From Eledone cirrhosa (taxonomy: Eukaryota): DNA of 64,000 nt. Position 1 is the first letter of the stretch. Every line of letters starts with the position of its first letter. Below the pieces are notes generated by a model. The model was not told the origin of the DNA. It made no database searches and was given only the letters and a program-made list of their open reading frames with translations. The stretch lies in assembly GCA_964016885.1 (NCBI GenBank), contig OZ024742.1, positions 300,266,001 through 300,330,000 of the forward strand, read 5' to 3'. A program made the translations under genes and the position numbers. Shown one piece after another: positions 5,598 through 6,770 of the stretch.

Positions 5598-6770
5598 ATG
5601 GCTAGTTTCAACTTAGAAGTTGCAGAAATTGAAGACGTGGACAGGAGTTTAAATGTTTCTGAAGATGTAGACAGAAATTTGGATGTTTCTGAAGATGCAG
5701 ATAAGAATTTATTTTTTAGCGATGAACGTATGCTTTCAATCACGGAAGTTATAAGTGACATAGGCGAAATTCAGTCACTCTGTTCCCATTTAAACATATC
5801 TCATGGTGTAATTGAAATATACAAACAAACACACAGCAATTCACTTGATTTAGGATTTGATCTTCTCCGTTTATGGCGAGAGGTAAATAATTTGGGCGAT
5901 TTTGAGAGTTGTCGACAGCTAGAAAAAGTTCTCAATGAGCTGGGCTACCGTTTTAAAAGTTCTCAATTAATATCATCTTTCATTAAATGGTGCACAACTA
6001 AGATGTGCTGCCGTAATCGTGTTCATAATCACGCACACTCAACTTTAGGTCAGTTTAAAAGAAGAAACCAAGATTTAATGACCAATGTACAGAGTAAATT
6101 CCAAAGCTGGTCCGATGACTTAGATATAGAACAAAATAGTATCAACATGGCTCTTTTTCTTCAACTTTATAATCCCGATTTTTCTACGAATGAACAACAT
6201 TTGTGTAATATGTTATTTAACATAAAGAATAGTTTGGATTATCATTTACCACGCGATGCTTTTTTATCAAATTTTCAATGTCCCGATGTGACACACTGCG
6301 TTACAAAACGATTTACAGTCAGATGGAAAGTTGTTACTTCATTTTTACACGAGCGTCGATTGATGCTGATCAGCGAGCAGTTTCCTGATACTGACACAGT
6401 GTTTAAGTTAGGTATTTGTTTAAATATACCGTTTGTTAAATTAAACTCGATTATTAATAAGAATAAACATTCCGTCCATTTAGCTGCTTATTATATGTTG
6501 TATGTGTGGAAACAAAATTGCGTAGACTTGAAAGAAGAACGTCACGTTTTTAAACTAATTGCAGCTTTAAAAGATATAGAGAATGTGGAGCTTTCAGAAA
6601 AACTTTTGGAAGATTATAAATCGTGGAAACTATCCCCTATGCCTATTAAATTCATTGATTTTCAGATTGCAAAAAGGAAAATAGTTGATACAGAACAAAA
6701 TCCCCTCCCAAGGTACCTATCATCTCCAAATAAGATTTCGTTGAAAGCACTCCCACCTCCAGAAGTATGA
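5598..6770 (+). CDS. Intronless 390-aa protein with two death-domain-like helical repeats (paralogue 1)
   Basis: Long open frame, also open in the paralogue. Segments ~5712-5980 (LCSHLNISHGVIEIYK...GFDLLRLWRE...LEKVLNELG) and ~6342-6617 (LGICLNIPFVKLNSI...AYYMLYVWKQ...LIAALKDIENVELSEKL) match the death-domain pattern by eye. The domain call is not HMM-verified. Confidence 0.78.
   Translation: MASFNLEVAEIEDVDRSLNVSEDVDRNLDVSEDADKNLFFSDERMLSITEVISDIGEIQSLCSHLNISHGVIEIYKQTHSNSLDLGFDLLRLWREVNNLGDFESCRQLEKVLNELGYRFKSSQLISSFIKWCTTKMCCRNRVHNHAHSTLGQFKRRNQDLMTNVQSKFQSWSDDLDIEQNSINMALFLQLYNPDFSTNEQHLCNMLFNIKNSLDYHLPRDAFLSNFQCPDVTHCVTKRFTVRWKVVTSFLHERRLMLISEQFPDTDTVFKLGICLNIPFVKLNSIINKNKHSVHLAAYYMLYVWKQNCVDLKEERHVFKLIAALKDIENVELSEKLLEDYKSWKLSPMPIKFIDFQIAKRKIVDTEQNPLPRYLSSPNKISLKALPPPEV

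What the first reader, a model, noticed from the sequence alone, without database searches (positions are those of the whole stretch)
6227..6338. Sharply bounded hypervariable cassette between otherwise near-identical paralogues
Copy 1 reads KNSLDYHLPRDAFLSNFQCPDVTHCVTKRFTVRWKVVTS; copy 2 (23689-23800) reads KKSLDHHLPRNILFSAYKYPDVTYCVTKRFTIIRVLNNS. Length is unchanged, the framework (HLPR, PDVT, CVTKRFT) is kept, and synonymous sites also differ heavily (GTG/GTC, TGC/TGT, AAA/AAG, CGA/AGA, ACA/ACT). The adjacent second domain differs at only two residues. A smaller patch lies at ~6666-6740. Inference: gene conversion homogenises the domains while an old specificity segment is retained or swapped in from other paralogues, as in immune, allorecognition or incompatibility loci.
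Basis: partly seen in the sequence, partly recalled or inferred. Interest (0 to 1): 0.75.

Follow-up and report, generated by a model that had tools for sequence, protein, structure and literature searches.

The report
Ancient two-type linker in octopus paralogues
Three neighbouring copies of an octopus-family gene are nearly identical except for one short stretch that comes in two old versions, both also found in a second species, which likely means that gene conversion keeps the copies alike while selection keeps these two versions apart.

Summary
In detail: 36 of 112 bases differ between copy A (5598-6770) and copy B (23057-24232), against 2 of 322 in the next domain. It is no assembly artefact. 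A third copy, U, 55 kb upstream, is a mosaic: B-like in the first domain, A-like in the segment, which points to conversion or unequal crossover. The segment is not hypervariable and has no outside donor. It has two types (dS 0.81, dN/dS 0.4). A run with another species label holds both types, each about 92% like its counterpart, with the same borders, so the types are three to four times older than that species split. The protein is predicted to be death domain, helical bundle, linker, death domain; the segment is the bundle's end plus the linker. Type B has lost a motif invariant in five outgroups. Best reading: a divergence island under concerted evolution, likely kept by selection, as in opsin or RHD/RHCE pairs. 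A neutral conversion barrier is not excluded. No immune role was shown.

The parts
5598..6770 (+). Copy A: single open frame, 390 aa; acidic N-terminus, predicted death domain, helical bundle, linker, death domain, C-terminal tail
   Evidence: full-length homologues of 369-380 aa at 52-61% in Octopus and Argonauta
23057..24232 (+). Copy B: single open frame, 391 aa, carries the type-B segment
6227..6338 (+). Type-A segment (residues 210-247; core 6255-6337); keeps the family motif at residues 216-222; shared with copy U at all but 1 of 112 bases
23689..23800 (+). Type-B segment; changes 4 of the 10 segment positions that are invariant in five outgroup proteins (D220, A221, F222, K244, numbering of copy A)
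   Evidence: same type in run X5, 10 of 112 bases differ
5703..6011 (+). First predicted death domain (residues about 36-138)
   Evidence: model of residues 30-253, Z 11.3, rmsd 2.9, 98 aligned to FADD death domain
5727..6205 (+). Stretch in which copies B and U have no base substitution while A differs (run of 14 informative sites, 5729-6143): inferred conversion or crossover tract
   Evidence: 0 of 20,000 shuffles reach the run
6339..6660 (+). Second predicted death domain (residues about 246-349); A and B differ at 2 of 322 bases, U is the odd one at 7
   Evidence: Z 13.5, rmsd 2.2, 98 aligned to FADD death domain
6661..6770 (+). C-terminal tail; 13 of 110 bases differ between A and B, background level
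5345..6908 (+). Whole block of homology with copy B (22801-24393) and, to 6843, with copy U (L008:4236-5705, outside the window); only about 1.5 kb, set among repeats

Best explanation
Three tandem copies of a gene for a predicted two-death-domain protein are near-identical in both domains but carry two old types of a 38-residue segment, and gene conversion likely keeps the domains alike while selection likely removes conversions that would overwrite one type with the other. Shown: the mosaic of the three copies, the age of the two types relative to a species split, and type B's loss of a family motif. Inferred: the duplication is old (after the split from Octopus, before the split of the two species sampled); conversion tracts of several hundred bases keep resetting the domains; the segment escaped early and stayed apart. 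Inferred function: the protein would be a cytoplasmic death-domain adaptor; the motif at the end of the helical bundle and the linker behind it would set how the second death domain is held or which regulator binds; type B would be a differently regulated form whose death-domain surfaces stay compatible with type A.
For: Mosaic: B=U over 14 informative sites in a row (5729-6143), A=U over 33 in a row (6255-6337); 0 of 20,000 shuffles reach either. Age: pS 13 of 26 sites in the segment, 5.8 of 166 in the domains (Fisher p 4e-9) and 26 of 253 bases in the 5' flank (p 3e-6). Second species: two 201-base contigs in run X5, one with 16 differences from A (depth 20.8), one with 16 from B (depth 19.4), same borders; at least 24 of the 33 core differences sort by type across species, while sites 23822, 23828 and 23833 just outside sort by species (both X5 contigs), and the first domain is one contig 9% from copy A. 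This is the type-N cluster among type-C sites of PMC2588116 (passages read). Constraint: B type across species 6 synonymous, 4 replacement changes, pN/pS about 0.2, p 0.011. No indel in the segment to block pairing. Neutral toy model with an even rate: 4 of 800 runs gave such an island, 2 of 1,920. Type B breaks 4 of 10 family-invariant positions in the segment; outside it, all three copies share the same 4 changes among 69 invariant positions.
Against: dN/dS between the types is 0.4, so there is no excess of replacements. The neutral model makes islands in 63 of 800 runs, and up to 29 of 50 in one setting, if the segment evolves three times faster and tracts stop at heterology; among three Octopus-like orthologues the core segment is 57-79% identical against 89-90% for the first domain, though the second domain is as low (73-78%). 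Purifying selection on type B shows constraint, not that the difference from A is what is selected. Derived changes split 9 on B and 6 on A, not a significant asymmetry (p 0.6). The run test for A=B was not significant (longest run 4, p 0.38). In X5 the second domain lies at depth 21, half the sum of the two types, so its homogenisation there is not shown, and the two types could be alleles there. No function was tested; neither window protein hits Pfam Death.
Confidence: 0.6

Rival explanations
1. Neutral conversion barrier: the linker accepts changes faster, passed the mismatch level at which conversion tracts stop, and has drifted apart since; both types work alike.
For: Toy model gives islands in up to 29 of 50 runs with a threefold faster segment and tract arrest. 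Residues 224-246 are low-confidence in the model. Core segment varies more than the first domain among orthologues. PMC3728101 (discussion, part 1 of 2) notes that clustered divergence can itself cut conversion.
Against: Between the two species the segment changed no faster than the domains (10 of 112; 57 of 611; 22 of 287). With an even rate islands arose in 4 of 800 runs. Borders are the same in both species. The island includes a motif invariant down to a 33%-identical homologue, which is not a fast-evolving site.
Confidence: 0.27
2. Captured balanced polymorphism: the two types began as alleles of one locus under balancing selection (a recognition or compatibility switch), and tandem duplication later fixed both in this genome.
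For: In run X5 the two types lie at equal depth (20.8 and 19.4) between shared flanks, as a heterozygote would. Same length, sharp borders, old split. Death-domain proteins often serve in innate signalling (established knowledge).
Against: X5 also shows two 5' contigs and two tail contigs, which fits two loci as well. The window's copies have unrelated flanks beyond 1.5 kb, which fits an old duplication. Only two types were seen in 3 copies and 2 species; allorecognition loci carry many alleles (recalled).
Confidence: 0.1
3. Assembly artefact (collapsed or mis-polished flanks, or a falsely duplicated haplotype), or a segment imported from a distant paralogue.
For: None found. X1 and X2 may be the assembly's own sample.
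Against: Contigs carry each type into identical flanks, and three distinct 5' ends at depth 9-12; one 1280-base contig of sample S2 spans the mosaic of copy U; homology between copies ends after 1.5 kb; no donor in four genome searches; the pattern recurs in a second species.
Confidence: 0.03

Closest known systems
Divergence peaks in duplicates under concerted evolution (Innan 2003; Teshima and Innan 2008): human red/green opsin exon 5, RHD/RHCE, Drosophila CG18281/CG17637
   Same: A narrow stretch where orthologues are closer than paralogues, between stretches where paralogues are closer than orthologues (PMC3924837 passages; PMC2588116 passages). Tested here with three copies and two species.
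   Different: The peak lies inside one exon and is very high (33 of 83 core bases); the gene is an uncharacterised cephalopod protein; no functional difference is known. Teshima and Innan 2008 itself was not held and is cited through these two papers.
GOT1p1/GOT1p2 of the copepod Tigriopus californicus (PMC3728101; abstract, outline and part 1 of the discussion read)
   Same: Intronless, linked paralogues with islands of divergence without indels amid conversion, and chimeric copies.
   Different: An enzyme; islands followed across populations. Here a predicted signalling adaptor, followed across two species.
Death-domain adaptors (FADD, TRADD, PIDD, ankyrin death domains)
   Same: Both domains of the model match the death-domain fold best, FADD first (Z 13.5 and 11.3); Pfam Death passes its cut-off in the Argonauta homologue.
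   Different: Two death domains around a four-helix bundle without a clear match; 11-16% identity to FADD; homologues found only as 6 proteins, the named ones all octopods. Not an orthologue of any named adaptor.
Hypervariable recognition loci (MHC, Hydractinia alr, Botryllus fuhc, fungal het, plant S loci; recalled, not looked up in detail)
   Same: Old lineages shared between species, patchwork by conversion.
   Different: Two types only, dN/dS below 1, no signal peptide or receptor fold seen, types sit at separate tandem loci in this genome.

Membership tests
Divergence island under concerted evolution | Local peak of paralogue divergence far above the rest of the gene | tested here: met
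   36 of 112 against at most 22 in 20,000 shuffles; pS 0.50 against 0.035
Divergence island under concerted evolution | Exchange between copies outside the peak | tested here: met
   Three-way mosaic; species-specific sites shared by both types in X5; first domain one contig 9% from copy A
Divergence island under concerted evolution | Inside the peak, sequences group by type across species | tested here: met
   At least 24 of 33 core differences; bound derived
Divergence island under concerted evolution | No indel or element that blocks pairing at the peak | tested here: met
   No gap between A and B in 5710-6843; copy U alone has 3 extra bases near 6204
Divergence island under concerted evolution | Selection, not a neutral barrier, keeps the peak | tested here: inconclusive
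   Toy model: 4 of 800 at even rate, 63 of 800 at threefold rate; pN/pS 0.2 on type B
Divergence island under concerted evolution | The two products differ in function | not testable with these tools
   Needs expression and swap experiments
Death-domain superfamily | Six-helix death fold | tested here: met
   Predicted models; top rows are all death-fold chains, Z 13.5 and 11.3, 98 residues aligned each; Z near 13 is modest for helical folds and Foldseek E was 0.02 at best
Death-domain superfamily | Pfam PF00531 above its cut-off | tested here: inconclusive
   0 of 3 own copies hit; 1 of 6 homologues passes, 2 more just under
Death-domain superfamily | Homotypic death-domain assembly with a partner | not tested
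   No partner known; no complex job sent
Hypervariable recognition locus | Many segment types or alleles | tested here: inconclusive
   Two types in 3 copies and 2 species; about three individuals at most, seen through contigs that drop rare variants
Hypervariable recognition locus | dN/dS above 1 in the variable segment | tested here: not met
   0.40 between types; about 0.2 within type B across species
Hypervariable recognition locus | Pool of donor cassettes or pseudogenes | tested here: not met
   Only three full copies found; searches score the best candidates only

The most novel reading that the evidence does not exclude
The segment is a two-state specificity switch of a cephalopod death-domain signalling adaptor: type A keeps the ancestral motif, type B is an ancient decoy or re-targeted form, held for several times the age of a species split (possibly first as balanced alleles), while conversion is itself useful because it keeps both forms able to co-assemble through identical death domains. 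It would give a mapped, testable handle on self/non-self or pathogen signalling in octopods.
Probability: 0.2. Interest if true: 0.75.

Novelty: new member of a known kind. Interest (0 to 1): 0.5.

Why it matters
The evolutionary pattern is known from a few textbook pairs, but clear cases with three copies, a mosaic and a second species are few, and six literature searches (listings only) showed none for this gene or for a cephalopod death-domain gene. The island narrows a possible functional difference in an uncharacterised protein family to 28-38 residues, including a motif that is invariant in all five full-length outgroups and lost in one type, so a single linker swap can test it. If selection is confirmed it is a natural mutant pair for death-domain signalling in octopods, about which little is known (my recall). 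If the barrier is neutral it is a good example of a false signature of neofunctionalisation.

Tried and rejected
Pfam on the window proteins: no Death hit. Sequence search of solved structures: best E 0.02, FADD. Foldseek: nothing at E 0.001 or better for either model; the middle bundle was not searched alone, so its fold is open. Atlas look-alikes for the O. bimaculoides homologue: best score 0.85, Death family, a lead only. Two searches for short protein fragments with further segment types: none scored among 5 and 1 candidates (the first covered only 30-72 residues). No RNA holder was listed among 8 runs; run X4 has no kind on record, so nothing is claimed on expression. X4 shows a B-type tail but no B-type segment contig; contigs cannot show absence. 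Three look-ups of earlier findings returned nothing. Rejected: second cassette at 6666-6740 (background level); outside donor; false haplotype duplication; positive selection measured as dN/dS above 1. Idea that the segment and the tail pair as strands: the model shows no strands. The toy simulations fix changes at once, use two copies and guessed parameters; they bound the argument and are not a fit. Nucleotide sequences of the Octopus and Argonauta orthologues were not available, so no absolute date and no copy count in those genomes.

Full report
1. The observation. The window holds two single-frame genes on the + strand, copy A at 5598-6770 (390 aa) and copy B at 23057-24232 (391 aa). At 6227-6338, 36 of 112 bases and 18 of 38 residues differ with no gap; 33 of the 36 lie in 6255-6337. 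The next 322 bases differ at 2. With the 74 coding differences shuffled 20,000 times, the densest 112-base window never exceeded 22. The patch near 6666-6740 is real, but 13 of 110 bases is the level of the 5' flank (26 of 253), so it is unconverted background.

2. The gene. Full-length homologues of 369-380 aa come from Octopus bimaculoides, O. vulgaris, Argonauta hians and one unnamed record, at 52-61% identity; a search of 1.8 billion representatives added one full-length protein at 33% and one fragment, both unnamed. The host is therefore inferred to be an octopod. A model from 9 sequences (mean pLDDT 67.6) shows an acidic disordered start, two helical domains, a four-helix bundle between them and a low-confidence stretch at 224-246. 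Residues 246-349 match the FADD death domain at Z 13.5 (rmsd 2.2, 98 aligned); a second model of residues 30-253 (pTM 0.71) matches it with residues 36-138 at Z 11.3 (rmsd 2.9, 98 aligned). These Z values are modest for helical folds, but the top rows are all death-fold chains and Pfam Death passes its cut-off in 1 of 6 homologues. The variable segment is the last turns of the bundle plus the linker, and it ends where the second death domain begins.

3. A third copy. The genome holds three copies within about 80 kb and no other, by protein, DNA, segment-only and distant-homologue searches (only best candidates are scored) and by tblastn over the window plus 120 kb of neighbouring sequence. Copy U lies about 55 kb before the window (L002:997-2136, 379 aa). 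Homology between copies covers only about 1.5 kb, which rules out a falsely duplicated haplotype. The three copies form a patchwork: B and U agree at 14 informative sites in a row over 5729-6143, A and U at 33 in a row over 6255-6337 (0 of 20,000 shuffles each), and in the second domain U is the odd one at 7 sites and B at 2. The run test for A=B was not significant (p 0.38). Segment trees change topology accordingly: (B,U), then (A,U), then (A,B). No single duplication order explains this; exchange between copies does (inference).

4. Age and selection. Between A and B the segment has pS 13 of 26.2 sites (dS 0.81) and pN 23 of 87.8 (dN 0.32), against pS 5.8 of 166 in the domains (Fisher p 4e-9) and 10% in the 5' flank (p 3e-6). 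So dS is far from uniform, and the segment is older than even the flanks; dN/dS is 0.4. In the segment tree, types A and B are sisters against the Octopus proteins (bootstrap 82), with branches of 0.23 and 0.50 on a stem of 0.13: the split came after the separation from Octopus but early.

5. Other samples. Of 8 runs listed I laid five (X1, X2, X4, X5, X6; all but X6 as contigs). X1 shows three 5' ends at depth 9-12, the A type at 18.7, the B type at 6.6 with 0 differences over 189 bases into both flanks, and one contig for the second domain. X4, another sample, has one 1280-base contig that spans the whole mosaic of copy U. X5 bears another species label and is 9% from copy A in the first domain (57 of 611). 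It holds two 201-base contigs: one with 16 differences from A (depth 20.8), one with 16 from B (depth 19.4), with the same borders as in the window (joints 6252-6338 and 23716-23800). The B-like contig alters 3 of the 33 core differences; the A-like one has 9 of its 16 differences right of the segment and 1 at 6240, so at most 6 in the core. At least 24 of 33 sites thus sort by type across species. Just outside, sites 23822, 23828 and 23833 are changed in both X5 contigs and in none of the window's copies (the last also in X4). The first domain of X5 is a single contig at depth 29. This is the arrangement that Osada and Innan use as the mark of selection under conversion (PMC2588116, passages). 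The types are about 4 times (all sites, 0.42 against 0.095) or 3 times (synonymous, 0.81 against 0.26) as divergent as the two species. Within type B the 10 changes between species are 6 synonymous and 4 replacements (pN/pS about 0.2, p 0.011). Caveats: contigs drop small bubbles and rare variants; in X5 the second domain lies at only half the summed depth; whether the X5 types are loci or alleles cannot be told.

6. What differs. Of 79 positions invariant in five full-length outgroups, 10 lie in the segment. Type B changes 4 (D220, A221, F222, K244), copy A changes 1 (H215), copy U none; outside the segment all three copies share the same 4 changes. In X5 type B has changed again at 219 and 220, as if the motif were released there. 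Overall the derived changes split 9 on B and 6 on A, which is not significant.

7. Mechanism. Shown: mosaic, two old types, their presence in two species, loss of the motif in B. Inferred: recurrent conversion of the domains; selection against conversion across the segment. Toy simulations test the neutral rival: at low conversion rates 2 of 1,920 runs gave an island; at higher rates with tract arrest, 4 of 800 did at an even rate but 63 of 800, and up to 29 of 50 in one setting, when the segment evolved three times faster. The between-species rates give no sign of a faster segment (8.9% against 9.3% and 7.7%), but orthologue proteins are less conserved there than in the first domain, so the neutral barrier keeps about a quarter of the odds. 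The role as a signalling adaptor, and type B as a differently regulated form, rest on the fold alone.

8. Comparison and novelty. It works like, and meets the sequence criteria of, the divergence peaks described for opsin and RHD/RHCE (PMC3924837, passages) and for copepod GOT1 (PMC3728101, abstract and first part of the discussion). It fails two tests for a hypervariable recognition locus (dN/dS above 1; a donor pool) and the test for many types is inconclusive. Six searches (listings only; subscription journals mostly missing; no supplements read) showed no paper on this gene. Verdict: a real feature, a new and unusually clean member of a known kind, in an uncharacterised cephalopod protein family; interest 0.5.

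Noticed in passing
window 5624-5697 and 23083-23156: Copies A and B share a tandem duplication of about 30-39 bases in the acidic N-terminus that copy U and the outgroups lack; a loose contig end in run X5 suggests the repeat there too.
   Followed up: partly
L002:1567-1572 (copy U, near window 6204): Copy U has 3 extra bases exactly where it switches from B-like to A-like; confirmed in contigs of X1 and X4. May mark the crossover or tract end.
   Followed up: partly
window 6240: Copy A alone changes the family-invariant His215 to Tyr; B, U and both X5 types keep His. With Cys137-Cys138 and His216, also invariant, these could be metal ligands (speculation).
   Followed up: no
window 6371: Sample S2 (X4) carries a synonymous base found in the second species and in none of the three assembled copies: an old variant still segregating.
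   Followed up: no
window 37250-45000: About 7.7 kb of AT-rich microsatellite with strand switches near 40007-40098; typical octopod simple repeats.
   Followed up: no
window 1-3400, 25857-26477, 29343-32428, 49855-52944; L010: Open frames that look like LINE reverse transcriptase and endonuclease pieces, and Helitron-like helicase pieces in L010 (names from recall of the translations); a short interspersed repeat recurs at 24402-25180 and 27083-27286.
   Followed up: no
window 7063-7470: A 400-base inverted repeat built on microsatellite arms just downstream of copy A.
   Followed up: no
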